Of a stretch of 40,954 nt of DNA, positions 33 through 24,560 are shown piece by piece (position 1 is the first letter of the stretch; every line of letters starts with the position of its first letter). A program made the position numbers and the translations under genes. Origin of the DNA: a virus. The stretch lies in the UHGV virus genome UHGV-0187710, one strand, 5' to 3'. Under the pieces are notes generated by a model. It saw nothing but the letters and a program-made list of their open reading frames with translations, had not been told where the DNA came from and searched no databases.

Positions 33-1283
33 ATGGAAAGTAAAGTAGTTGTTCCGGCACAAGGCAAGAAGATCACCCTGCAAAACGGCAAACTCAACGT
101 TCCTGAAAATCCGATTATCCCTTACATTGAAGGTGATGGAATCGGTGTAGATGTAACCCCAGCCATGCTGAAAGTGGTCGACGCTGCAGTCGAGAAAGCC
201 TATAAAGGCGAGCGTAAAATCTCCTGGATGGAAATTTACACCGGTGAAAAATCCACACAGGTTTACGGTCAGGATGTCTGGCTGCCTGCTGAAACCCTTG
301 ATCTGATTCGTGAATATCGCGTTGCCATTAAAGGCCCTCTGACCACTCCGGTTGGTGGCGGTATTCGTTCTCTGAACGTTGCCCTGCGCCAGGAACTGGA
401 TCTCTACATCTGCCTGCGTCCGGTACGTTACTATCAGGGCACCCCAAGCCCGGTTAAACACCCTGAACTGACCGATATGGTTATCTTCCGTGAAAACTCG
501 GAAGACATTTATGCGGGTATCGAATGGAAAGCAGACTCTGCCGACGCTGAGAAAGTGATTAAATTCCTGCGTGAAGAGATGGGCGTGAAGAAAATTCGCT
601 TCCCGGAACATTGCGGCATCGGTATTAAGCCGTGTTCTGAAGAAGGTACCAAACGTCTGGTTCGTGCAGCGATCGAATACGCAATTGCTAACGATCGTGA
701 CTCTGTGACCCTGGTGCACAAAGGCAACATCATGAAGTTCACCGAAGGCGCGTTTAAAGACTGGGGCTACCAGCTGGCGCGTGAAGAGTTTGGCGGTGAA
801 CTGATCGACGGCGGCCCGTGGCTGAAAGTTAAAAACCCGAATACCGGCAAAGAGATCGTCATTAAAGATGTGATTGCTGATGCATTCCTGCAACAGATCC
901 TGCTGCGTCCGGCTGAATATGATGTTATCGCCTGTATGAACCTGAACGGTGACTACATTTCTGACGCTCTGGCTGCACAGGTCGGCGGTATCGGTATCGC
1001 CCCAGGCGCAAACATCGGTGACGAATGCGCCCTGTTTGAAGCCACCCACGGTACTGCGCCGAAATATGCCGGTCAGGACAAAGTAAACCCAGGCTCTATT
1101 ATTCTCTCCGCTGAGATGATGTTACGCCATATGGGTTGGACTGAAGCGGCTGACCTGATTGTTAAAGGTATGGAAGGCGCAATCAATGCCAAGACCGTAA
1201 CCTATGACTTCGAACGTCTGATGGAAGGCGCTAAACTGCTGAAATGTTCAGAATTTGGTGACGCGATCATCGAAAACATGTAA
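33..1283 (+). CDS. icd: NADP-dependent isocitrate dehydrogenase; the 3' end is the known lambdoid integration target, so the last part may be phage-supplied
   Basis: 416-aa ORF whose full-length sequence is recognisable as enterobacterial Icd (ends ...[16 protein letters not shown]); GC-balanced host-like composition; followed by a hairpin terminator. Confidence 0.97.
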
Positions 1284-1307
1284 TGTAGGAATTTGTTAAA
1301 ATCATTA

Positions 1308-1339
1308 ACGGGGGCGTAACGCTCCCGTTGTTTTTTGTT
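1308..1339 (+). terminator. rho-independent terminator downstream of icd
   Basis: 8-bp GC-rich stem (acgggggc / gctcccgt, one G-U pair) with short loop, followed by tgttttttgtt, 25 nt after the icd stop. Confidence 0.6.
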
Positions 1340-1395
1340 AGGCTGCTAACGGTTATCAAAACTTTATCAAAATAAGTTATCAAAACGAGGTTGAA

Positions 1396-2013
1396 GTGAA
1401 ACGCATAAGGATAAAGAAACCAAGATGGATTTTTGTTATTTTATTTTTTGTATTTTTAGGTATTCCATTATTTATTGATGGTATCAAGTATACTGATTAC
1501 GCTTCAGAGAATTTGCTGCCTGAATTTACTGGTGTAATACTTGAGTTTGTAATCATTCTTTATGTTATTGATTATATTCAAAAGAAAAATGAGCGTGATA
1601 ATAAAATAAAAGCAGAAAAACGTTTGCGTGAAATGTTTATTTTTTTCTTTAATAAACTGAATGACCACGTTCCTGAAAATTGCAGGATCGGATCTTTTTA
1701 CGGGCGAGAGCATGATAAAAATAAGCGTCAAATGTCATTAATGAAAGCCCATATAGAAAAACATGGGCTAGATGAAAAGGCAATAAGAGAAATTCGTATT
1801 CATTGCAAAGGTGATATTGATTTATTCAATAGTTTTATTCCAGTTGTTGCTACATTAGAAGAGCAGCATTTAAAAGCATGGACGAGAATTTCATATTACA
1901 TGAATGCAATAATTACGGAAAGAGAAACTGTACAATTTTCCGTTATAAAAATCATTGATAAAATACAGACATTTGATGATGCATCCTATAATAATAAACT
2001 GATAGTAGATTAA
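1396..2013 (+). CDS. hypothetical membrane-anchored protein, AT-rich cargo gene between icd and int
   Basis: 205-aa ORF with GTG start preceded by GAGG; hydrophobic N-terminal segment (WIFVILFFVFLGIPLF); visibly AT-rich relative to flanking genes; no recognisable motif. Confidence 0.55.
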   Translation: MKRIRIKKPRWIFVILFFVFLGIPLFIDGIKYTDYASENLLPEFTGVILEFVIILYVIDYIQKKNERDNKIKAEKRLREMFIFFFNKLNDHVPENCRIGSFYGREHDKNKRQMSLMKAHIEKHGLDEKAIREIRIHCKGDIDLFNSFIPVVATLEEQHLKAWTRISYYMNAIITERETVQFSVIKIIDKIQTFDDASYNNKLIVD

Positions 2014-3137
2014 GAGGGTATTTTTTGCCATTCTTTACCTCTGTCATCATGATATTTATCTGTTTGATGCTGGGTTTTATGACCCAGCAATTTTTGTGTA
2101 TCAATTCCCTGGTCTTTGTAAAGACGTTCAGACAATGATCTTTGCTCATGGAATGTAGCGGGTGTTCCATCTCCCCATTTAATACAAGCCTTATCCCTCG
2201 CCTTACTGAAATTCATCGTTAATGTGTTCGATTTAACTTGTGCGCCTCGTTTAGCCTGTGATGTAGCTCGGAAAAAGTGAATCAGATAGGGGCTAACTGC
2301 ATAATCTCGACAGCGCGCAACGACGTCACGTAAACTCCAGTTAATCGCATTGAGGCGAAGAGAAAGAGGTATAGCAATTTTGCTGCCGGTTTTTTCCTGT
2401 TCGATATGCAGATGATCATCCCAGATATCGCTAAATTTCATTTTGGATATGTCACCAAGACGTTGCCCAGTCACAAGGGCAAGCAGCATTGCATTTCCCA
2501 TATATTGATGTTTCTTATCTGCGATATCGAAAATCTTCAGCCACTCTTCGAGACTAAGTCGTTGTCTGGTAATCTTGCGCCTGGGCTGTTTAGTAGCAAG
2601 GGCAGGGTTGTGACCAGGCGGCACTTCACCGTAGTGTTGGGCCTCTTTGAAAACATCGATCAGTACTGAACGAACAACTTGTGCCATTCTTGGTTGACCT
2701 GCAGATAGATACTCTTCAAGAATTTGAGCAATATCCCTGACATCAACAGAAGATATGAGCTTCATTCCCGCACGTTCCTTAAGAAGTGCAACTGGCTTGG
2801 CTTTTTGTTTATACGTATTCTCCTTGATATCACCTGAAGCGAATCTTTCCTCCTGAATTTTCCAGTACCGCTCAAGCCAGGTAACAGTGGTAATTGACTT
2901 ACCCTTGCCGGTAGCAATTCGATCGCTTATAGCCAGTACCTGTCTTGAACGCTGCTCAGCAAGTCTTGCGTTTGCCTCAGTAGCAATTGCTTTAGCCTCA
3001 ACTTCATCAGTACCTAGGCTGTGAAATTTCCCCGTTACAGGATGCTTGTACCTCCAATACACTTTATTGACCTTACGACTGTATAGTGGATAGAGGTTAG
3101 GTATTGATACATTATTTTTACGTGGTCTCGCAGCCAT
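2010..3137 (-). CDS. int: tyrosine-recombinase integrase, lambda Int family
   Basis: N-terminus MAARPRKNNVSIPNLYP and C-terminus FHEQRSLSERLY...LLGHKTQHQTDKYHDDRGKEWQKI resemble lambda Int as recalled; start taken at the internal Met at 3137 (the track ORF extends to 3215); overlaps the xis 3' end as in lambda. Confidence 0.93.
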   Translation of the reverse strand: MAARPRKNNVSIPNLYPLYSRKVNKVYWRYKHPVTGKFHSLGTDEVEAKAIATEANARLAEQRSRQVLAISDRIATGKGKSITTVTWLERYWKIQEERFASGDIKENTYKQKAKPVALLKERAGMKLISSVDVRDIAQILEEYLSAGQPRMAQVVRSVLIDVFKEAQHYGEVPPGHNPALATKQPRRKITRQRLSLEEWLKIFDIADKKHQYMGNAMLLALVTGQRLGDISKMKFSDIWDDHLHIEQEKTGSKIAIPLSLRLNAINWSLRDVVARCRDYAVSPYLIHFFRATSQAKRGAQVKSNTLTMNFSKARDKACIKWGDGTPATFHEQRSLSERLYKDQGIDTQKLLGHKTQHQTDKYHDDRGKEWQKIPS

Positions 3138-3363
3138 CGCTGAGGATCCTTTGCAATTTTGGTGAATCAGATTTCTTGATAACCGGCGCAGCAAGTTCTC
3201 CAACCAATTCCGCATCCTCCCTAACTCTCCAGAGCCTACCTTGCTTCATTGCTGGTGGAGAAAAGAGATTTTGCTTAGCGTAACGGCGCAATGTCGAGAC
3301 GCTAGGTGGATTACTTCTGTATTTATCGGTTGCCCATTCTTCAAGAGTTAACATCTGAATCAT
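3118..3363 (-). CDS. xis: excisionase (Xis-like)
   Basis: 81-aa ORF directly upstream of and overlapping int; N-terminal LTLEEWA...PPAMKQGRLW resembles lambda Xis as recalled; GGAG 8 nt upstream of the ATG. Confidence 0.75.
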   Translation of the reverse strand: MIQMLTLEEWATDKYRSNPPSVSTLRRYAKQNLFSPPAMKQGRLWRVREDAELVGELAAPVIKKSDSPKLQRILSDGCETT

Positions 3364-3408
3364 GCGTTATTCTCCATTTAATAACCCGGCTGCACCCGGC
3401 ATACGTCA

Positions 3409-18742: not shown

Positions 18743-19012
18743 ATGGGGCTTGAAATGATTATCGGCCTGGTTGTTGCTGTGCTGGCTGCAATTGCAGGTG
18801 CTTTTGGGCTGGGCAAATCACGCGGTACCAGTATCGCTGAAACAAAAGCGGACCAACAACGCACTGAAGAACGTGCAATAGCTATTGAAGCGGTTGCAGA
18901 ACGCCGGGTAGAAACAACAAAAGGAGCCAGGGATGTACAACAGACTGTTAACCATATGCCTGATGACGCTGCTGATCGCGAGCTGCGCAAAAACTGGACA
19001 CGTAAGGATTGA
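18743..19012 (+). CDS. i-spanin (Rz-like)
   Basis: N-terminal transmembrane helix (MIIGLVVAVLAAIAGAFGL) then a charged helical periplasmic region; GAGG 5 nt upstream of the ATG; directly after the endolysin. Confidence 0.7.
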   Translation: MGLEMIIGLVVAVLAAIAGAFGLGKSRGTSIAETKADQQRTEERAIAIEAVAERRVETTKGARDVQQTVNHMPDDAADRELRKNWTRKD

Positions 19013-19154
19013 GGTTATTGACACCGGCTGCGATTGGGTAAAACCCATCTACGGCACTGCTCATGATTGGGAAGTGCTGGACAGGCAGACCAAGAAAGAC
19101 ATTCTTATGCATAACAAAGTGTGGATGTCAAACTGTGGCTCTATAACTTATTGA
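18933..19154 (+). CDS. o-spanin (Rz1-like lipoprotein), overlapping the i-spanin 3' end in another frame
   Basis: signal peptide with lipobox LIASC; overlapped spanin architecture. Confidence 0.65.
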   Translation: MYNRLLTICLMTLLIASCAKTGHVRIEVIDTGCDWVKPIYGTAHDWEVLDRQTKKDILMHNKVWMSNCGSITY

Positions 19155-19805
19155 TTTTGTTTTTTTGTTGTCTACCATATCAGGCAATGTGAAGGCATAT
19201 AGAAGAAATACTTCGGTGAAACCAATCATTTCTTGAGCATCTTCTTTTGAAAATTCTTCATCAGAATGAACTGCTCCATTGGAATCGATTCGAACTATAT
19301 GTGCCCATTCCCTCATTTGATCTGTAATCAGTCCCTTAGCATGCAACATAGAAATCCGTTTAACCAATTTTTCATCTTTTGAGTCATTTCCCAGTAACTC
19401 CCGTGTAGCAATGTCCAAGACTTTACGGCAAAGCATAACGGATGTGTCGAAACGACAGCGCCCTAAGTTGTCTTTTGCTTCTATGAAAGCCATAGCAGCA
19501 CGTGGCGGAGTGTGTTCGGGGGCGTTAAGGAGGGTGGGTTTCGGGATGATATCAATCAACTGGTACTCAGTATTTCCAGGAATGATTACGTTTACATCAT
19601 TATTTTGCCTAGATTTTGCACGAGGTAAATAACCACCGGGATTATTCATTTTTACAATAGCAATACCTGATTGAAAACAGCTTCGACAACAAAATGCAAT
19701 ATTAACTAAAGGCCCGGCGTTGATACGCAGTTCTGCCCATCCTTCAAGGACAGCATTTTCCCTCAGACAATGTGGGCAAGTGATATCGAAAGTGAGAATT
19801 CGCAT
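19128..19805 (-). CDS. zinc-ribbon protein with DUF4145-like (HEPN-superfamily-like) C-terminal domain; candidate abortive-infection/defence cargo
   Basis: start at internal ATG 19805; N-terminal CPHC ... CCRSC; C-terminal FIEAKDNLGRCRFDTSVMLCRKVLDIATRELL ... HIVRIDSNGAVHSDEEFSKEDAQE pattern recalled as DUF4145; opposite strand to the lysis genes. Confidence 0.7.
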   Translation of the reverse strand: MRILTFDITCPHCLRENAVLEGWAELRINAGPLVNIAFCCRSCFQSGIAIVKMNNPGGYLPRAKSRQNNDVNVIIPGNTEYQLIDIIPKPTLLNAPEHTPPRAAMAFIEAKDNLGRCRFDTSVMLCRKVLDIATRELLGNDSKDEKLVKRISMLHAKGLITDQMREWAHIVRIDSNGAVHSDEEFSKEDAQEMIGFTEVFLLYAFTLPDMVDNKKTKSISYRATV

Positions 19806-20550
19806 GACTCTACTCCATACATTAAAAGAAATTGAAAATGAATTACACAATGCACAACGACCTGAGTCTACACTCCTTCAACGATATGAAGTATCGAATG
19901 AGATTAAAAAAAAGGAGTTTGTAGTCGCTTTGATCGGTAAACTGATAGAATTGGACCGCCGTCTCTATGTCACATCATTGAAGCCTTAGTTTCAATTTTA
20001 CCGATTTATCGCTTAAGGGGTAGGACTTCAACACTACTAAGTGAGCATTGCAGCAGGCATTCAGGGGAATGCTGTGACAGTAGTTAGCTAGGGTAAACCG
20101 TTTGCGCCTGGGGATTTTACTTTGCGACGGAAAATTAAAAAACTATATGATTTCTTATCCCACTAGGATGTCTGCGGACTACTACTGACTGTTTAGGCTA
20201 TTACGAGGGGCTCAAACTCAACGTCTGGCATCAACGCAGAACTGAAAAAGTCGCCATGAATGTGGTTACGGTATTTGGTGGGATATAAACGTACCTTCAT
20301 TTCTAAGCTTGATAATCACCTTTGTCCGAATTGCCTACGCGATAGTCATGTAGTTTTAGTCATAACCGTTTACCCTATTGATGTCAAGATAAATTGGATA
20401 ACACTGATGAATCGAACCTCTAAATCCTTTGATGGGCCACTCATAGCTGACTGGTTCAAAAAAGTGTTATCAATGGTATGATAAGTTGAGATGAAAGGTG
20501 TAAATGAACTATAATAATTCAACAGTTAATCTGAGAAAAATGGATTATGT

Positions 20551-20820
20551 ATGTCGAATGTAAAAAAAATAGATGCTATAGTTCAAAATTTATTTGAATT
20601 CAGAGATGCTACAGGTGAACTTACGGATAAAAATATTGTTTTAATACAAAAAATCATAACGAACTTACCTGACTATGCTGGTAAGGATCCATATGAATTT
20701 TATTCATCATTTTCTGAAGATATTAATGAGTCGCTCAAAGCAATTGCCAATTATCATAAGGCACATGCTAAATACATTAATGCCCTCGATAAATTAGCAG
20801 AGCTTAGGTCGGAGGGGTAA
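20551..20820 (+). CDS. hypothetical small soluble protein, gene 1 of an AT-rich two-gene cassette
   Basis: 89-aa ORF, very AT-rich, predicted all-helical; 2-nt gap to the next gene. Confidence 0.55.
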   Translation: MSNVKKIDAIVQNLFEFRDATGELTDKNIVLIQKIITNLPDYAGKDPYEFYSSFSEDINESLKAIANYHKAHAKYINALDKLAELRSEG

Positions 20821-20822
20821 TA

Positions 20823-21200
20823 ATGGCTACGGAAGATATTCAGGCTTTGTTATCTAAAGTTAATGCGTTAAGATTTGAAGATAAAAGAATAGAGAAGGAA
20901 ACAGGAGAGATTGAAAATGAAATTCAGGCTCAATTTCTTCGTGATGGTAAAACAAGGAGTACATTAACCATAACATTTATGAGAGGCTTTTTTGGTCTTA
21001 TCGTTTTTTCTTTTATATTTGTGATAGCTTATAACTATTGCGCAGTGCAATGGGTACTTCAATTACAAAGCAAAGGGCTCATGGAGGCTTCTAAAAGTAT
21101 CGCACTACTTGAGTTAGATAAGGTGTTATCTATTATGGTTAGTGCGTTAGGAACATCTCTTGGGTTTATAATTGGCTATTATTTTAAAGACAAAAAATAA
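20823..21200 (+). CDS. hypothetical small membrane protein, gene 2 of the AT-rich cassette
   Basis: 125-aa ORF: charged helical N-terminus then two hydrophobic segments (FFGLIVFSFIFVIAY and VLSIMVSALGTSLGFIIGYYF); followed by a strong terminator. Confidence 0.6.
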   Translation: MATEDIQALLSKVNALRFEDKRIEKETGEIENEIQAQFLRDGKTRSTLTITFMRGFFGLIVFSFIFVIAYNYCAVQWVLQLQSKGLMEASKSIALLELDKVLSIMVSALGTSLGFIIGYYFKDKK

Positions 21201-21273
21201 ATAATTTAATTTTACATTGCTATTTATGTTTTGCTTTTAAGATTTTTAACTTTCTAGATGTAGAGTTATTGTT

Positions 21274-21305
21274 AAAGCACTGGTATTTGCCAGTGCTTTT
21301 TTATT
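21274..21305 (+). terminator. rho-independent terminator after the AT-rich two-gene cassette
   Basis: 10-bp stem aaagcactgg / ccagtgcttt with loop tatttg followed by ttttatt. Confidence 0.65.
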
Positions 21306-21599
21306 AAAATCCGCGGATTAATGACGGCAATCATGAATACTCCTCCAAAGACTGATCCAACGATACGGGTGTATAAGTCACACTTGTTTAATCTGTGATT
21401 GATGGCACTATAATTTATGTTGCACAACATAAACTGCCGATGGAGGGAATTGAGTGCTGAGCATGTCAGACATAAGTGTGTTGTCGAAGGTCTCCTCAGG
21501 CATGGTTTCTGCATAACGTCGACACTTGAAAGCCTCCATAATGACAATAAAGTATAAGTATTATCATTATTAATTGTCACTTGCCGTTGCGACATGCTT

Positions 21600-21611
21600 G
21601 GGCGGCGACCG
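21600..21611. other. candidate cosN cohesive-end site
   Basis: GGGCGGCGACCG matches the lambda 12-nt cohesive end GGGCGGCGACCT at 11 of 12 positions; sits inside an imperfect inverted repeat cttgggcgg cga ccgcctaag, about 100 bp upstream of the HNH and terminase genes. Confidence 0.5.
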
Positions 21612-21700
21612 CCTAAGTTCTCTTTATAAATGAGAAGTTCCCGCTAGCGACCGTTTCTGATTCTTTTTTTCTACTAAGTTTGTATCAAATAAACAGGATA

Positions 21701-22069
21701 ATGCCGATGCCAGCACGAGCAAAGCGTCCATGCCGGCACAAGGGCTGTGCGGCAGTTACCAACGATGCCAGTGGCTATTGTGATCAACACCGACAGCGGC
21801 ATGCTGGTGATGGCTGGCGTAACTATCAGGCAGGAAAGAGCAGGCAGGAACGTGGATATGGGCGGACCTGGGAAATTAAACGGGTGCGTATCCTTCAGCG
21901 TGATAAGTACCTGTGTCAGAACCATCGCCGGCAGAAGATTGCAAAAAAGGCGACCAGCGTTGACCACATCATTCCAAAAGCTCATGGCGGTACTGATGAC
22001 GATTTCAATCTTGAGTCGTTGTGCTGGGACTGCCACAGAGCGAAGACGGCAAGAGAGCGTATCCGATGA
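21701..22069 (+). CDS. HNH endonuclease (packaging-associated)
   Basis: Cys/His-rich ORF with CQNHRRQKIAKKATSVDHIIPKAHGGTDDDFNLESLCWDCHRAKT; directly upstream of terminase genes. Confidence 0.85.
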   Translation: MPMPARAKRPCRHKGCAAVTNDASGYCDQHRQRHAGDGWRNYQAGKSRQERGYGRTWEIKRVRILQRDKYLCQNHRRQKIAKKATSVDHIIPKAHGGTDDDFNLESLCWDCHRAKTARERIR

Positions 22070-22404
22070 GTTAGACCCATTGCACATATTTTGGTTCACG
22101 GCTCTATACAATAGCTAACTGCCCAAAATAATGGGGTGGTTCATCGCGCCGCGCCAACCTGCACTGCAGCTATTGTGGGCAGTCAGGGCATAACTCTAGT
22201 GCCTGTCCACATAATGAGAGCTGCGGTCGTCGGCGCAGCCTGAATGATGACTTCCATCTTGATTGATGCCCACACAGGCCAGGGGAAGGGGGGATCAAAT
22301 CCCTGACCCCTTTCGCCTTCCAGGACTGCCGCCTGAAGGACATTTTTATACGCAAGAAATAAGGATCTTTTTTCCGGTAGGTTTTAACTATTAATAGAGG
22401 TGTT

Positions 22405-22839
22405 ATGGCTGGTGGAATTCGATCATCAGGCGGAGGGCGAAAGCCCGTTTTACCTTCAGGACAAAAAAGCAAACTGACCAGAATCGCACCTCCCGCTGAG
22501 TTAATGGGGGAGAATGCAATAAGACTGTGGAAAACCCAAAGTAAAATTCTGATCGAAAGAGGCGTGTTTGAACTGGAGGATGCGCCCCTGCTTCTGGCTT
22601 ACTGCAATGCCTTCCATTTAATGCTTGAAGCTGAAAAATTGCTCTCGTCAAGCCTGACGACCGAAAGTGAAATGGGGGGATTAAAGAAACATCCCGCCGT
22701 TAACATCAGAAATGATTCTGTTTCCCAGATAGCCCGTCTTGGCTCGCTTCTGGGGTTGGATCCACTCAGCCGAATTAGGATGCGTGGCAGTGGAAATGAT
22801 CCGGACGACGACGGGAATGAATTTGATGAGTTTGACTGA
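22405..22839 (+). CDS. terminase small subunit (P27-type)
   Basis: 144-aa ORF with basic N-terminus and central LLLAYCNAFHLMLEAEK motif; acidic tail; ATGA-coupled to the large subunit. Confidence 0.85.
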   Translation: MAGGIRSSGGGRKPVLPSGQKSKLTRIAPPAELMGENAIRLWKTQSKILIERGVFELEDAPLLLAYCNAFHLMLEAEKLLSSSLTTESEMGGLKKHPAVNIRNDSVSQIARLGSLLGLDPLSRIRMRGSGNDPDDDGNEFDEFD

Positions 22840-24560
22840 TGGCTACATATCCGAACGTCAATGCAGCGAACCAGTATGCAAGAGATGTTGTTGGCGGGAA
22901 GATCCTTGCTTGTCAGTTAACTGTGCTTGCCTGTCAAAGACACCTTGATGATTTGGAACGTGCGAAGGATCCTGCCTGGCCTTACCGGTTTGATAAAAAC
23001 AAGGCCGAGCGATTTTTGCGCTTTGCTCAGAAGATGCCTCATACGGCCGGTGAATGGGCCAGGAAGAAACTACGAATAGAATTTGAGCCCTGGCAAAAGT
23101 TTGCCCTTGGTGTGCCATTTGGATGGGTTAATAAGAAGTCCGGATTCCGGCGTTTTTCTGAAATATATATTGAGGTGCCCAGGAAAAATGGGAAATCCGC
23201 AATTGCAGCTGCCGTTGGTAATTATATGTTTTGCGCCGATGGTGAACATGGTGCAGAAGTGTACTGTGGCGCCACTACTGAAAAACAAGCCTGGAAAGTC
23301 TTCTCTCCCGCTCTACAAATGGTAAAAAAACTCCCGGCATTGCGACAAAAATACTCAGTCAAACCCTGGGCGAAGAAAATGACCCGTCCGGATGGCTCTG
23401 TTTTTGCGCCAGTCATCGGCGATCCTGGTGACGGCGATTCCCCTTCATGTGCAATTATTGATGAATATCACGAGCATCAGACTGATGCACTTTATACAAC
23501 GATGACTACCGGGATGGGGGCAAGGGAGCAGCCTGTTACTCTGATTATTACTACAGCGGGTTATGACATTACTTCGCCCTGTTACGAGAAGCGTGTGCAG
23601 ATAGTGGAAATTCTCCGCCGTAACCGGACAGGAGAAGAAAACGAGACAATATTTGGCATTATATACGGTCTGGATGACGATGATGACTGGACCAGGCCCG
23701 AAGCGCTGATTAAAGCAAATCCCAACTTTGGTGTTTCTGTTAAAGAGCATTTTCTTCGGGCGAAGCAGTTACTGGGAATATCCAATCCCAGCCAGACTAA
23801 CAAAATTCTGACCAAGCACTTTAACCGGTGGGTAAGTGCAAAAACGGTTTTTTATGACCTGCAAAGATGGATGGCTGCTGCGGATAAAAACCTTAAATTA
23901 TCTGATTTTGTTGATGAGGATTGCTGGCTGGGTATTGATCTGGCCTCGAAAGTAGACCTGAATGCCGTAGTGCCAGTGTTCAGGAGAGAGGTTGCTGGTA
24001 TAACCCATTTTTACTGTGTGGGGCCGCTGTTCTGGGCGCCTGAAGATACAATTTATTCACCAGATCCCACGCTGAAAACCATTTCTGAACGTTACCAGTC
24101 ATTTGTGAAACAGGGGGTATTGATACCTACTGAAGGGGCTGAGGTGGATTATCGGTTAATTTTTGAGTCAATTCTTCAGTTACGCCAGCAGGTTAAAATT
24201 GTCCAGTGCCCGATAGATCCTTACGGGGCAACATCATTGCGCCATCTGCTTGAAGAGGAGGGGCTGGAATCCGTTGAGATCAGGCAAAATTTTACACATA
24301 TGAGTGATCCAATGCGTGAAATTGAGGCGGCGCTGGCATCAGGACGCTTTCATCATGACGGTAACCCTATCATGAACTGGTGCATCCAGAATGTTATAGG
24401 GCGTTACTTACCAGGAAGCGATGACATTGTTCGCCCAGGGAAGGAGAGAAAGCAAAACAAAATAGATGGCGCGGTAGGACTAATGATGGGAGTCGGGCGA
24501 GCCATGCTGAACGGAACTGTCAGTAAATCGGCTTATGATGAGGAAGATATTACATGTTGA
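22839..24560 (+). CDS. terminase large subunit
   Basis: 573-aa ORF following the small subunit, with ATPase-like N-terminal region and nuclease-like C-terminal region. Confidence 0.95.
   Translation: MATYPNVNAANQYARDVVGGKILACQLTVLACQRHLDDLERAKDPAWPYRFDKNKAERFLRFAQKMPHTAGEWARKKLRIEFEPWQKFALGVPFGWVNKKSGFRRFSEIYIEVPRKNGKSAIAAAVGNYMFCADGEHGAEVYCGATTEKQAWKVFSPALQMVKKLPALRQKYSVKPWAKKMTRPDGSVFAPVIGDPGDGDSPSCAIIDEYHEHQTDALYTTMTTGMGAREQPVTLIITTAGYDITSPCYEKRVQIVEILRRNRTGEENETIFGIIYGLDDDDDWTRPEALIKANPNFGVSVKEHFLRAKQLLGISNPSQTNKILTKHFNRWVSAKTVFYDLQRWMAAADKNLKLSDFVDEDCWLGIDLASKVDLNAVVPVFRREVAGITHFYCVGPLFWAPEDTIYSPDPTLKTISERYQSFVKQGVLIPTEGAEVDYRLIFESILQLRQQVKIVQCPIDPYGATSLRHLLEEEGLESVEIRQNFTHMSDPMREIEAALASGRFHHDGNPIMNWCIQNVIGRYLPGSDDIVRPGKERKQNKIDGAVGLMMGVGRAMLNGTVSKSAYDEEDITC

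What the first reader, a model, noticed from the sequence alone, without database searches (positions are those of the whole stretch)
21596..22405. Lambda-like cos cohesive-end sequence with flanking inverted repeat upstream of the HNH endonuclease and terminase genes
GGGCGGCGACCG at 21600..21611 matches the lambda 12-nt cohesive end at 11 of 12 positions and is embedded in a near-symmetric element (cttgggcgg cga ccgcctaag). It lies in a non-coding stretch just upstream of an HNH endonuclease, terS and terL, which is the arrangement of HK97-like cos packaging systems. This fixes the ends of the virion chromosome and shows that the cargo at 19128..21305 sits at the extreme right end of the phage genome.
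Basis: partly seen in the sequence, partly recalled or inferred. Interest (0 to 1): 0.4.

Follow-up and report, generated by a model that had tools for sequence, protein, structure and literature searches.

The report
Vestigial lambda cos beside the working cos
The lambda-like sticky-end sequence is real but looks like a decayed leftover; this prophage's own packaging enzymes most likely cut 730 bases downstream, at an HK97/P27-type site between the HNH and small-terminase genes.

Summary
GGGCGGCGACCG is at 21600-21611, inside the near-palindrome 21597-21617, as reported. The count alone is weak: 12 of 100 shuffles give an 11/12 match. The flanks show true homology, though. Window 21553-21668 aligns colinearly with lambda cos -49..+68, and relatives carrying the same element match lambda cos at E down to 5e-25.

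It is very unlikely to be the working cos:
- The window has no Nu1/gpA. Its terminase is the HK97/P27 type (TerL 56%, TerS 44%, HNH 86% identical to phiKO2).
- cosQ and most of cosB are missing.
- Across relatives the element drifts at about the synonymous rate of the adjacent HNH gene, and the 12-mer is degenerate in several lineages.

The working cos is predicted in a 92-bp conserved block at 22282-22373, between HNH and terS. The record ends of HK97, phiKO2 and PY54, the cos-site annotated in the phiP27 record and the 10-nt gap mapped in SfI all fall on the same alignment columns. That gives a cohesive end at 22327-22336 (TGCCGCCTGA, presumably a 3' overhang).

HNH is therefore the last gene of the virion chromosome. 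The low-GC cargo lies about 1-3 kb from the right end, not at its tip. This is an ordinary cos with an evolutionary footprint beside it; virion ends were not mapped.

The parts
21553..21668 (+). Decayed homologue of a lambda-type cos region (lambda -49..+68), most likely vestigial.
   Evidence: Direct local alignment to the lambda junction scores 32 against shuffles at 17.0 +/- 2.5 (1 of 2000 reach it); it is the best-scoring place in the window. The same element in relatives matches lambda at E 2e-18 to 5e-25. Multiple alignment.
21600..21611 (+). cosN-like 12-mer GGGCGGCGACCG: 11/12 to the lambda cohesive end, with position 12 as in N15.
   Evidence: The same 12-mer occurs in L043, L062, L065, L100 and L101. 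Other relatives carry degenerate forms such as GGGCAAGAACCG and GGGTGAGAACCG.
21596..21618 (+). Hairpin over the 12-mer (10-pair stem including one G-U, 3-nt loop) followed by TCTCTTTATA. Terminator-like on the + strand only. Its dyad (21607) lies 1.5 bp from the cosN dyad (21605/21606).
   Evidence: Flagged as terminator-like. The RNA fold is -17.9 kcal/mol on + (z -2.66) against -12.2 on -. The hairpin is not conserved in L043 or L014.
21618..21663 (+). Remnants of the lambda I2 spacer (TTCTCTTTATAAATGA, 21618-21633) and of R3 (CCGTTTCTGATTC, 21651-21663).
   Evidence: Alignments. Lambda subsites as defined in PMC4669245.
21707..22069 (+). Packaging-associated HNH endonuclease (alternative start 21701). 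Predicted to be the last gene of the virion chromosome.
   Evidence: Pfam PF01844, E 7.5e-13. 86% identical to phiKO2 gp60, 66% to PY54, 57% to SfV; a weak local match to HK97 gp74 (39% over 46 aa, E 1.7e-6).
22066..22266 (+). Pseudogene of a phiKO2 gp64-like protein with two CCHC zinc knuckles. It has stop codons at codons 3 and 22.
   Evidence: Translation; phiKO2 gp64; indel-free alignment.
22282..22373 (+). HK97/P27-type cos region, a conserved non-coding block: G-run plus GGGATCAAATCCC, then GGACTGCCGCC, the predicted cut site and a downstream T-tract segment.
   Evidence: A stand-alone conserved island in L015, L018 and L039 (76-79%) and in E. coli prophages (93%). Its 25-mer occurs exactly in 61 IMG/VR contigs. 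Alignment with the HK97, phiKO2 and PY54 ends.
22327..22336 (+). Predicted 10-nt cohesive end TGCCGCCTGA, with the top-strand cut at 22336|22337. A 3' overhang is presumed by analogy.
   Evidence: The HK97, phiKO2 and PY54 records all end at the alignment column that equals 22336. The phiP27 record's 'cos-site' CGCCCGCCCC and the SfI 10-nt gap TGCCCGCCCC (PMC3636060) occupy the same 10 columns. HK97 and PY54 have 10-nt 3' overhangs.
22352..22373 (+). Putative TerS-binding segment, GCAAGAAATAAGGATCTTTTTT (+16..+37 from the cut). Assigned by position and T-tract only.
   Evidence: HK97 TerS binds +15..+29, a G next to an A-tract (PMC11331095). The segment is conserved in phiKO2-like loci.
22405..22839 (+). 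Small terminase, P27 family.
   Evidence: Pfam PF05119, E 5e-15. 44% identical to phiKO2 and 41% to PY54. phrog_83.
22839..24560 (+). Large terminase, HK97 type.
   Evidence: Pfam PF03354 and PF20441. 56% identical to phiKO2 and 25% to HK97 gp2. The only PDB match is 6Z6D, the HK97 TerL, E 3.5e-30.
19000..21600 (.). Low-GC island (30-44% GC) between the lysis genes and the lambda-type vestige. It holds the cargo genes and ends about 0.7 kb from the predicted right end.
   Evidence: Composition. DUF4145 protein at 19128-19850. Intrinsic terminator at 21274-21299.

Best explanation
Two cos-like elements flank the HNH gene.

(B) The working site is the HK97/P27-type cos at 22282-22373.
- TerS (22405-22839) probably binds the T-tract segment about 16-37 bp downstream of the cut.
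- TerL (22839-24560), helped by the HNH protein (21707-22069), makes staggered nicks around 22327-22336.
- This leaves a 10-nt cohesive end, TGCCGCCTGA, presumably a 3' overhang.
- Packaging then runs rightward into terS, terL and the head and tail genes. The chromosome ends with lysis genes, cargo, HNH and the gp64-like pseudogene.

(A) The lambda-type element at 21553-21668 is a leftover.
- An ancestral lambda-type phage right end (lysis genes, morons, cosQ-cosN-I2-R3) was joined about 100 bp right of cosN to an HNH-cos-terS-terL module that replaced Nu1/A.
- In this window cosQ and the left flank have decayed, and the low-GC cargo island abuts the 12-mer.
- The remaining GC-rich core happens to form a hairpin with a T-rich tail. 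It may act as an intrinsic terminator between the morons and the late packaging genes.

Shown: the sequence homologies, the gene types, and the agreement of reference termini in the alignment. Inferred: that cutting occurs at 22327-22336, the polarity of the overhang, the TerS site, and the terminator role.
For: 1. Terminase type. TerS is Pfam Terminase_4 (P27 family), TerL is TerL_ATPase plus TerL_nuclease, and there is an HNH gene. Identities to phiKO2 are 86% (HNH), 44% (TerS) and 56% (TerL); TerL is 25% identical to HK97 gp2. The only PDB hit is 6Z6D, the HK97 TerL.

2. No lambda-type terminase. tblastn with Nu1, gpA and N15 gp1 against the window gives a best E of 0.45.

3. Position of cos in reference phages. 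HNH is the last gene and terS the first in HK97, SfV, phiKO2 and PY54. The phiP27 record annotates a cos-site between HNH and terS.

4. Homology of the site. A multiple alignment of 19 sequences has 15 invariant columns, and the HK97, phiKO2 and PY54 records all end at the column that equals window 22336. The phiP27 cos-site and the SfI mapped gap TGCCCGCCCC fall on window 22327-22336. The Vibrio phage PhiPS02 record also starts at that column.

5. Spread. The block follows HNH in 19 of 29 genome loci scanned with a strict pattern, spanning Citrobacter, Klebsiella, Enterobacter, Photorhabdus, Xenorhabdus, Providencia and Shigella. Its 25-mer is exact in 61 IMG/VR contigs.

6. Mechanism in the model system. 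HK97 has 10-nt 3' overhangs, TerS binds at +15..+29, and gp74 HNH stimulates cos cleavage.

7. Vestige status of the lambda-type element.
- cosQ (GGGTCCT) is unrecognisable in the window, and the HNH gene starts at about +102/+108, where I1, R2 and R1 would be.
- The 12-mer is degenerate in several relatives.
- Pairwise identity of the element averages 0.742, against 0.747 at HNH third codon positions, over 45 pairs.
- All copies share one junction to the HNH upstream region.
Against: - No virion DNA data exist for this phage, so the cut site rests entirely on homology.
- The polarity and length of the overhang are taken from HK97, PY54 and SfI.
- The SfV record starts about 17 nt upstream of the shared column, so record ends are not always exact.
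- The T-tract lies about 8 nt further from the cut than in HK97.
- The lambda-type 12-mer is better kept in this window than its flanks. Compared with the distant relative L039, the element is more conserved than HNH third positions (0.66-0.74 against 0.47-0.53). Some constraint, or repeated recombination with functional lambda-type cos sites, is therefore not excluded.
Confidence: 0.8

Rival explanations
1. One reading: the lambda-like site at 21600-21611 is the working cos. It would be cut to give 12-nt 5' cohesive ends, with HNH, terS and terL as the first genes of the virion chromosome.
For: The 12-mer matches at 11/12, and the one change is at position 12. Changes in positions 7-12 have no measurable effect on cleavage by lambda terminase (PMC4669245). 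The flanks are truly homologous to lambda cos. The site is non-coding.
Against: - The window has no Nu1/gpA-type terminase.
- cosQ is absent, and I1, R2 and R1 are replaced by the HNH gene.
- In relatives the 12-mer decays while the packaging module stays intact.
- No reference phage with this terminase type has its ends here; all have them between HNH and terS.
Confidence: 0.04
2. The lambda-type element is kept because it does something other than serve the phage's own terminase. Possible roles:
- an intrinsic terminator insulating the late packaging genes from moron transcription;
- a shared 'linker' sequence that promotes homologous exchange of packaging modules with lambda-type phages;
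- a site that a co-resident lambda-type helper terminase can cut.
For: - The terminator-like hairpin and T-rich tail are on the + strand only.
- The element recurs in at least 16 of 59 IMG/VR contigs and in 3 genome loci, always upstream of HNH.
- Mosaic breakpoints fall at it: homology with L014 and L043 begins at 21603 and 21600, and the low-GC island ends there.
- L093 keeps a perfect lambda 12-mer with cosQ, and L039 has the exact N15 12-mer.
- Against L039 the element is more conserved than HNH third positions.
Against: - Overall the element drifts at the synonymous rate (0.742 against 0.747).
- The hairpin is not conserved in L043 or L014.
- cosQ and the 12-mer decay independently in different lineages.
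- In the window, the parts a lambda-type terminase needs for initiation (cosB) or termination (cosQ) are missing (for the requirements).
Confidence: 0.13
3. The phage packages by the headful (pac) mechanism, so neither element defines fixed ends.
For: None specific. Termini have not been mapped.
Against: The HNH + P27-type TerS + HK97-type TerL combination and the conserved block are shared with phages shown to have fixed cohesive ends: HK97, PY54 and SfI.
Confidence: 0.03

Closest known systems
cos of phiKO2 and PY54 (linear-plasmid prophages with HK97-type packaging genes)
   Same: - Same gene order: HNH, optional small genes, cos, terS (P27 family), terL.
- HNH, TerS and TerL are 86%, 44% and 56% identical to phiKO2.
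- The cos block aligns base for base, for example GGGGGGATCAAATCCCT.ACCCCTTTCGC and GGACTGCCGC.
- Both record ends fall at the column that equals 22336.
   Different: - The last bases of the predicted cohesive end differ: TGCCGCCTGA here, TGCCGCTTCA in phiKO2 and TGCCTGTCCC in PY54.
- phiKO2 has intact genes gp61-gp64 between HNH and cos; here only a gp64 pseudogene remains.
- The host phage here is an integrated lambdoid prophage at icd, not a linear plasmid.
HK97 cos (10-nt 3' overhang; TerS gp1, TerL gp2, HNH gp74)
   Same: - cos lies between HNH and terS, at a similar distance from terS (49 bp in HK97, 68 bp here).
- It shares the G-run plus GATCAAATC, GACCGCCGCC at the cut, and a downstream T-tract.
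- TerL is homologous.
   Different: - The proteins are distant: TerL is 25% identical, and blastp gives no HK97 TerS match.
- The T-tract lies about 8 nt further from the cut.
- HK97 has no lambda-type element upstream of gp74.
phiP27, SfI and SfV cos
   Same: The 10-nt cos annotated in the phiP27 record (CGCCCGCCCC) and mapped in SfI (TGCCCGCCCC) occupies the same columns as window 22327-22336. The flanks share GGGTCAAATC upstream and ATTTTTA downstream.
   Different: HNH is only 57% and TerS 29% identical to SfV. In SfV and phiP27 the HNH gene follows the preceding gene after only about 30-60 bp, which leaves no room for a lambda-type element.
Lambda and N15 cos (cosQ-cosN-I2-cosB, 12-nt 5' ends, Nu1/gpA terminase)
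   Same: Window 21553-21668 is colinear with lambda -49..+68. It has the 12-mer (11/12, position 12 as in N15), an I2-like TTCTC..TAT..ATGA and an R3-like CCGTTTC.
   Different: cosQ is lost, I1, R2 and R1 are absent, there is no Nu1/gpA, and an HNH gene starts at about +102/+108. The element drifts roughly neutrally among relatives.

Membership tests
Lambda-type cos (cosQ-cosN-cosB cut by Nu1/gpA) | A 12-bp cosN core related to GGGCGGCGACCT | tested here: met
   11/12 at 21600-21611. The only change is at position 12; changes in positions 7-12 have no measurable effect on cleavage (PMC4669245).
Lambda-type cos (cosQ-cosN-cosB cut by Nu1/gpA) | A 7-bp cosQ (GGGTCCT) about 24-30 bp upstream of cosN; it is highly conserved in functional lambda-like phages | tested here: not met
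   The window has AATTGTCAC at the aligned position. cosQ is present in L090 and L093, partial in L043, and lost in others.
Lambda-type cos (cosQ-cosN-cosB cut by Nu1/gpA) | cosB (R3, or R3-I1-R2-R1) followed by a Nu1-type terS gene | tested here: not met
   Only an R3-like remnant is present (21651-21663). The HNH gene starts at +102/+108.
Lambda-type cos (cosQ-cosN-cosB cut by Nu1/gpA) | A cognate Nu1/gpA-type terminase encoded by the phage | tested here: not met
   tblastn with lambda Nu1, lambda gpA and N15 gp1 against the whole window gives a best E of 0.45. Pfam assigns Terminase_4 and TerL_ATPase/TerL_nuclease instead. The window does not hold the whole prophage, but the packaging module is complete.
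HK97/P27-type cos (10-nt 3' cohesive ends; TerS + TerL + HNH) | A non-coding site between the HNH gene and terS | tested here: met
   The block at 22282-22373 lies between the HNH stop (22069) and the terS start (22405). Reference phages have the same arrangement.
HK97/P27-type cos (10-nt 3' cohesive ends; TerS + TerL + HNH) | Sequence homology to experimentally mapped cos sites of the family | tested here: met
   The alignment has 15 invariant columns. The HK97, phiKO2 and PY54 record ends, the phiP27 cos-site annotation and the SfI gap coincide on the same columns.
HK97/P27-type cos (10-nt 3' cohesive ends; TerS + TerL + HNH) | HK97-type TerL, P27-family TerS and a packaging HNH protein | tested here: met
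HK97/P27-type cos (10-nt 3' cohesive ends; TerS + TerL + HNH) | Virion DNA with a 10-nt 3' overhang at this site | not testable with these tools
   This needs virion DNA. It is inferred from HK97, PY54 and SfI.
HK97/P27-type cos (10-nt 3' cohesive ends; TerS + TerL + HNH) | A TerS-binding site a short distance downstream of the cut (HK97: +15..+29, a G next to an A-tract) | tested here: inconclusive
   GGATCTTTTTT is present at +27..+37 and conserved in phiKO2-like loci. The spacing differs from HK97, and binding was not tested.
Rho-independent terminator (for the 21596-21618 hairpin) | A GC-rich stem-loop followed by a U-tract on the transcribed strand | tested here: inconclusive
   The hairpin has a 10-pair stem with 6 GC pairs and the tail TCTCTTTATA, and it is flagged by the scan. 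The fold is -17.9 kcal/mol, z -2.66. The U-tract is interrupted, the hairpin is not conserved in L043 or L014, and there is no transcript evidence.

The most novel reading that the evidence does not exclude
The lambda-type cosQ-cosN-I2-R3 segment kept just upstream of the packaging HNH gene, in this window and in at least 19 other prophages or viral contigs, may not be junk. It could be a maintained 'adapter'. One version is a shared homology patch at which lambda-type and HK97/P27-type packaging and head modules are swapped. The other is a second cos that lets a co-resident lambda-type helper terminase cut, and so mobilise, a phage that normally packages with an HK97-type machine.
Probability: 0.1. 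Interest if true: 0.6.

Novelty: new member of a known kind. Interest (0 to 1): 0.3.

Why it matters
Placing cos correctly fixes the virion gene order: terS is first and HNH is last. It also predicts a different kind of cohesive end, 10 nt and probably 3', rather than lambda's 12-nt 5' end. That matters for mapping termini, for engineering the phage, and for saying where the cargo sits.

The case is also a caution. A near-perfect lambda cos 12-mer, even one that is truly homologous to lambda cos, does not identify the working cos unless the terminase type agrees.

The decayed lambda-type cos next to an HK97/P27-type packaging module is a clear footprint of a packaging-module replacement in lambdoid phages, and it recurs in many enterobacterial prophages. 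I did not find this arrangement described in the few literature searches I ran, which is not an exhaustive check.

Tried and rejected
1. I first treated the 12-mer as a chance match (12% of shuffles; absent from most HNH-bearing relatives). I dropped this once the flanks proved homologous to lambda cos.

2. I considered that homology starting exactly at lambda +1 might mark an ancient join at a virion DNA end. I dropped this because the direct alignment extends to lambda -49, and relatives keep the upstream half.

3. An Rfam scan of 21150-22450 at E up to 5 returned only sub-threshold hits, each far below its family's gathering score and so taken as noise.

4. A degenerate pattern for the cos block was mis-specified and found nothing, not even the window's own block. 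I replaced it with alignments and an exact 25-mer search.

5. The small ORFs in 21272-21595 have no Pfam or PHROG match and were left as probably non-coding.

6. The Salmonella phage F1055 record starts inside terS, so its ends are arbitrary and were not used.

7. The phiKO2 genome paper (requested by DOI) and a PMC id I recalled for the HK97 gp74 paper (Kala et al. 2014) were not held. The phiKO2 termini are therefore taken from the record coordinates only.

8. The contig ends of C. braakii loci L022 and L030 lie about 100 bp beyond the cut column, so they look like assembly breaks rather than termini.
Full report
**What is in the sequence.**
- GGGCGGCGACCG lies at 21600-21611 and matches the lambda cohesive end at 11 of 12 positions.
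- It is embedded in cttgggcgg-cga-ccgcctaag (21597-21617).
- The surrounding 21306-21700 has no ORF with a Pfam or PHROG match.
- Downstream come an HNH endonuclease (21707-22069, PF01844), a P27-family small terminase (22405-22839, PF05119) and an HK97-type large terminase (22839-24560, PF03354 + PF20441).
- A portal, an S49 protease and an HK97-fold capsid protein follow.
- The prophage sits next to icd and carries a lambda-type integrase.

**Is the 12-mer more than chance?**
By count alone it is not. An 11/12 match is expected 0.13 times per window, and 12 of 100 shuffles give at least one. The flanks change the answer.
- Three related prophages found through the HNH protein carry the same element about 100-190 bp upstream of HNH: L043 (Citrobacter portucalensis), L014 (C. 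werkmanii) and L039.
- They match the true lambda end-to-start junction. L043 covers lambda -51..+67 at 76.5% (E 2e-18), L014 covers +4..+67 (E 1e-8), and L039 covers -58..+34 (E 5e-8).
- The L043 element hits the cos region of 86 lambdoid phage records, including one annotated 'cos site'.
- L039's 12-mer, GGGCGGCGTCCG, is exactly the N15 cohesive end.
- The window itself aligns colinearly with lambda -49..+68 over 21553-21668. The score is 32 against 17.0 +/- 2.5 in shuffles; 1 of 2000 reaches it, and it is the best place in the whole window.

**Why it is not the working cos.**
A lambda-type cos needs cosQ, cosN and cosB, and it needs a Nu1/gpA terminase (PMC4669245).
- The window has no such terminase. 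tblastn with Nu1, gpA and N15 gp1 gives a best E of 0.45.
- cosQ (GGGTCCT) is unrecognisable in the window.
- The HNH gene begins at about +102/+108, where I1, R2 and R1 would lie.
- In a 16-sequence alignment the 12-mer is degenerate in several lineages (GGGCAAGAACCG, GGGTGAGAACCG, GGGGAGACGACCG), and cosQ decays independently. The packaging module downstream stays intact.
- Pairwise identity of the element averages 0.742, against 0.747 for third codon positions of the adjacent HNH gene, over 45 pairs. That is roughly neutral drift.
- All copies share one junction to the HNH upstream sequence. This points to a single ancestral event in which an HNH-cos-terS-terL module replaced Nu1/A about 100 bp to the right of cosN.

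**Where the working cos most likely is.**
In phages of this terminase type with linear records, HNH is the last gene and terS the first.
- HK97: HNH at 39054-39413 of 39732, terS at 50.
- SfV, phiKO2 and PY54 have the same layout.
- The phiP27 record annotates a 10-bp cos-site between HNH and terS.

The window's proteins belong with these. HNH, TerS and TerL are 86%, 44% and 56% identical to phiKO2, and TerL matches the HK97 TerL structure 6Z6D.

Between HNH and terS the window has a 92-bp block, 22282-22373.
- It is conserved on its own, with unrelated flanks, in L015, L018 and L039 (76-79%) and in E. coli prophages (93%).
- A strict pattern finds it downstream of HNH in 19 of 29 genome loci from many genera.
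- Its 25-mer, GGATCAAATCCCTGACCCCTTTCGC, is exact in 61 IMG/VR contigs. The lambda-like 21-mer is exact in only 2, and both are copies of this same phage.

In a 19-sequence alignment the HK97, phiKO2 and PY54 records all end at the column that equals window 22336. Three further records agree.
- The phiP27 annotated cos-site CGCCCGCCCC occupies the columns of window 22327-22336.
- So does the 10-nt gap TGCCCGCCCC found by run-off sequencing of SfI virion DNA (PMC3636060).
- The Vibrio phage PhiPS02 record starts at the same column.

HK97 and PY54 have 10-nt 3' overhangs. I therefore predict a cohesive end TGCCGCCTGA at 22327-22336, with the top-strand cut at 22336|22337.

In HK97, TerS binds +15..+29 next to an A-tract, and gp74 HNH stimulates cleavage (PMC11331095 and PMC9410871). 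The window has a conserved GAAATAAGGATCTTTTTT at +19..+37. I take this as the likely TerS site, by analogy only.

**What the palindrome itself may do.**
Its dyad (21607) is 1.5 bp away from the cosN dyad, so it is not the cosN symmetry. On the + strand it gives a 10-pair hairpin (one G-U pair, -17.9 kcal/mol, z -2.66) followed by TCTCTTTATA, and the scan flags it as terminator-like. On the - strand it is weaker and has no T-tail. L039 shares the right arm; L043 and L014 do not form the hairpin. A role as a terminator between the morons and the late packaging genes is plausible but unproven.

**Consequences for the cargo claim.**
The low-GC island (30-44% GC) runs from about 19000 to 21600 and ends at the 12-mer. 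With cos at 22336, the right end of the virion chromosome reads in this order:
- lysis genes;
- cargo (19128-21305);
- about 300 bp of unique AT-rich DNA;
- the lambda-type vestige;
- HNH;
- a gp64-like pseudogene;
- cos.

The cargo is near the right end, 1.0-3.2 kb from it, but not at its tip. It would have been at the tip in the inferred lambda-type ancestor, in the position that bor and the last small predicted ORFs (lambdap78, lambdap79) occupy in lambda (the position of bor is from general knowledge; the ORFs are).

**A recurrent architecture.**
The pairing of a lambda-type cos homologue, then HNH, then an HK97-type cos is not unique to this window. At least 16 of the 59 IMG/VR contigs retrieved with the HK97-type 25-mer have the lambda-type element 0.65-1.3 kb upstream of it (E 4e-7 to 5e-25 against lambda; two of the 16 are partial copies detected only with the L043 or window query). 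L093 even has a perfect GGGCGGCGACCT with cosQ.

This is best read as shared ancestry of one module join. The exception is the distant relative L039, where the element is more conserved than HNH third positions. That leaves a small chance of constraint, or of repeated recombination with functional lambda-type cos sites.

**Limits.**
No virion DNA was examined. The cut site, overhang polarity, TerS site and terminator role are all inferences from homology. The SfV record boundary lies about 17 nt from the shared column, so record ends are not always exact. The phiKO2 paper was not available, so its termini rest on the record coordinates.

**Verdict.**
This is a new member of a known kind, with a modestly interesting evolutionary footprint beside it.

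Noticed in passing
window 22066-22266 (+): Pseudogene of a phiKO2 gp64-like small protein with two CX2CX4HX4C zinc knuckles. It aligns without indels to phiKO2 and L015. Codon 3 is TAG (TAT in phiKO2), codon 22 is TAA, and the first knuckle has lost a Cys. The second knuckle's frame is intact but has no start codon.
   Followed up: yes
window 21553-21571; lambda -56..-42; relatives: A Fur-box-like palindrome upstream of cosQ (TGATAATCATTATCA in lambda, ATAAGTATTATCATTATTA here) is among the better conserved parts of the lambda-type element across relatives. The resemblance to the Fur box is from memory. Its function here is unknown.
   Followed up: no
IMG/VR loci L062, L065, L075, L078, L081, L085, L086, L090, L091, L093, L100-L103, L113, L119; genome loci L014, L039, L043: A lambda-type cos homologue lies just upstream of the packaging HNH gene in many prophages that also carry the HK97/P27-type cos block. 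All share the same junction to the HNH upstream region. L093 retains a perfect lambda 12-mer and cosQ.
   Followed up: partly
window 19000-21600: Low-GC island (30-44% GC) between Rz and the cos vestige. It holds a DUF4145 protein (19128-19850, minus strand; phrog_1305; only weak PADLOC hits, PD-T7-4 at E 0.002), two small PHROG families of unknown function (20551-21200) and a strong terminator at 21274-21299.
   Followed up: partly
window 33-3215: The prophage lies next to an isocitrate dehydrogenase gene (icd, 33-1283) with a lambda-type integrase at 2010-3215 (minus strand). From general knowledge, icd is the attachment site used by e14 and phage 21. The att sites were not mapped.
   Followed up: no
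L043 (Citrobacter portucalensis A60) 2840-3390: This locus keeps the best-preserved lambda-type cos among the genome loci (a cosQ-like site plus the 12-mer). Its HNH gene is truncated after about 65 codons and is followed by a 927-aa ORF on the other strand. It looks like the edge of a defective prophage.
   Followed up: partly
SfV record NC_003444 ends (L007, L008); PhiPS02 record PV649651 ends (L004, L012): The SfV record starts about 17 nt upstream of the cos column mapped in its close relative SfI. The PhiPS02 record carries a 76-nt duplication at its two ends that begins exactly at the predicted cut column.
   Followed up: partly
L022 and L030 (Citrobacter braakii ATCC 51113 contigs): Two contigs end about 100 bp beyond the cos column. 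Going by the numbers in the contig names, the 21-kb phage contig has roughly 83x coverage against roughly 23x for a chromosomal contig, which hints at a replicating or induced prophage in that culture.
   Followed up: no
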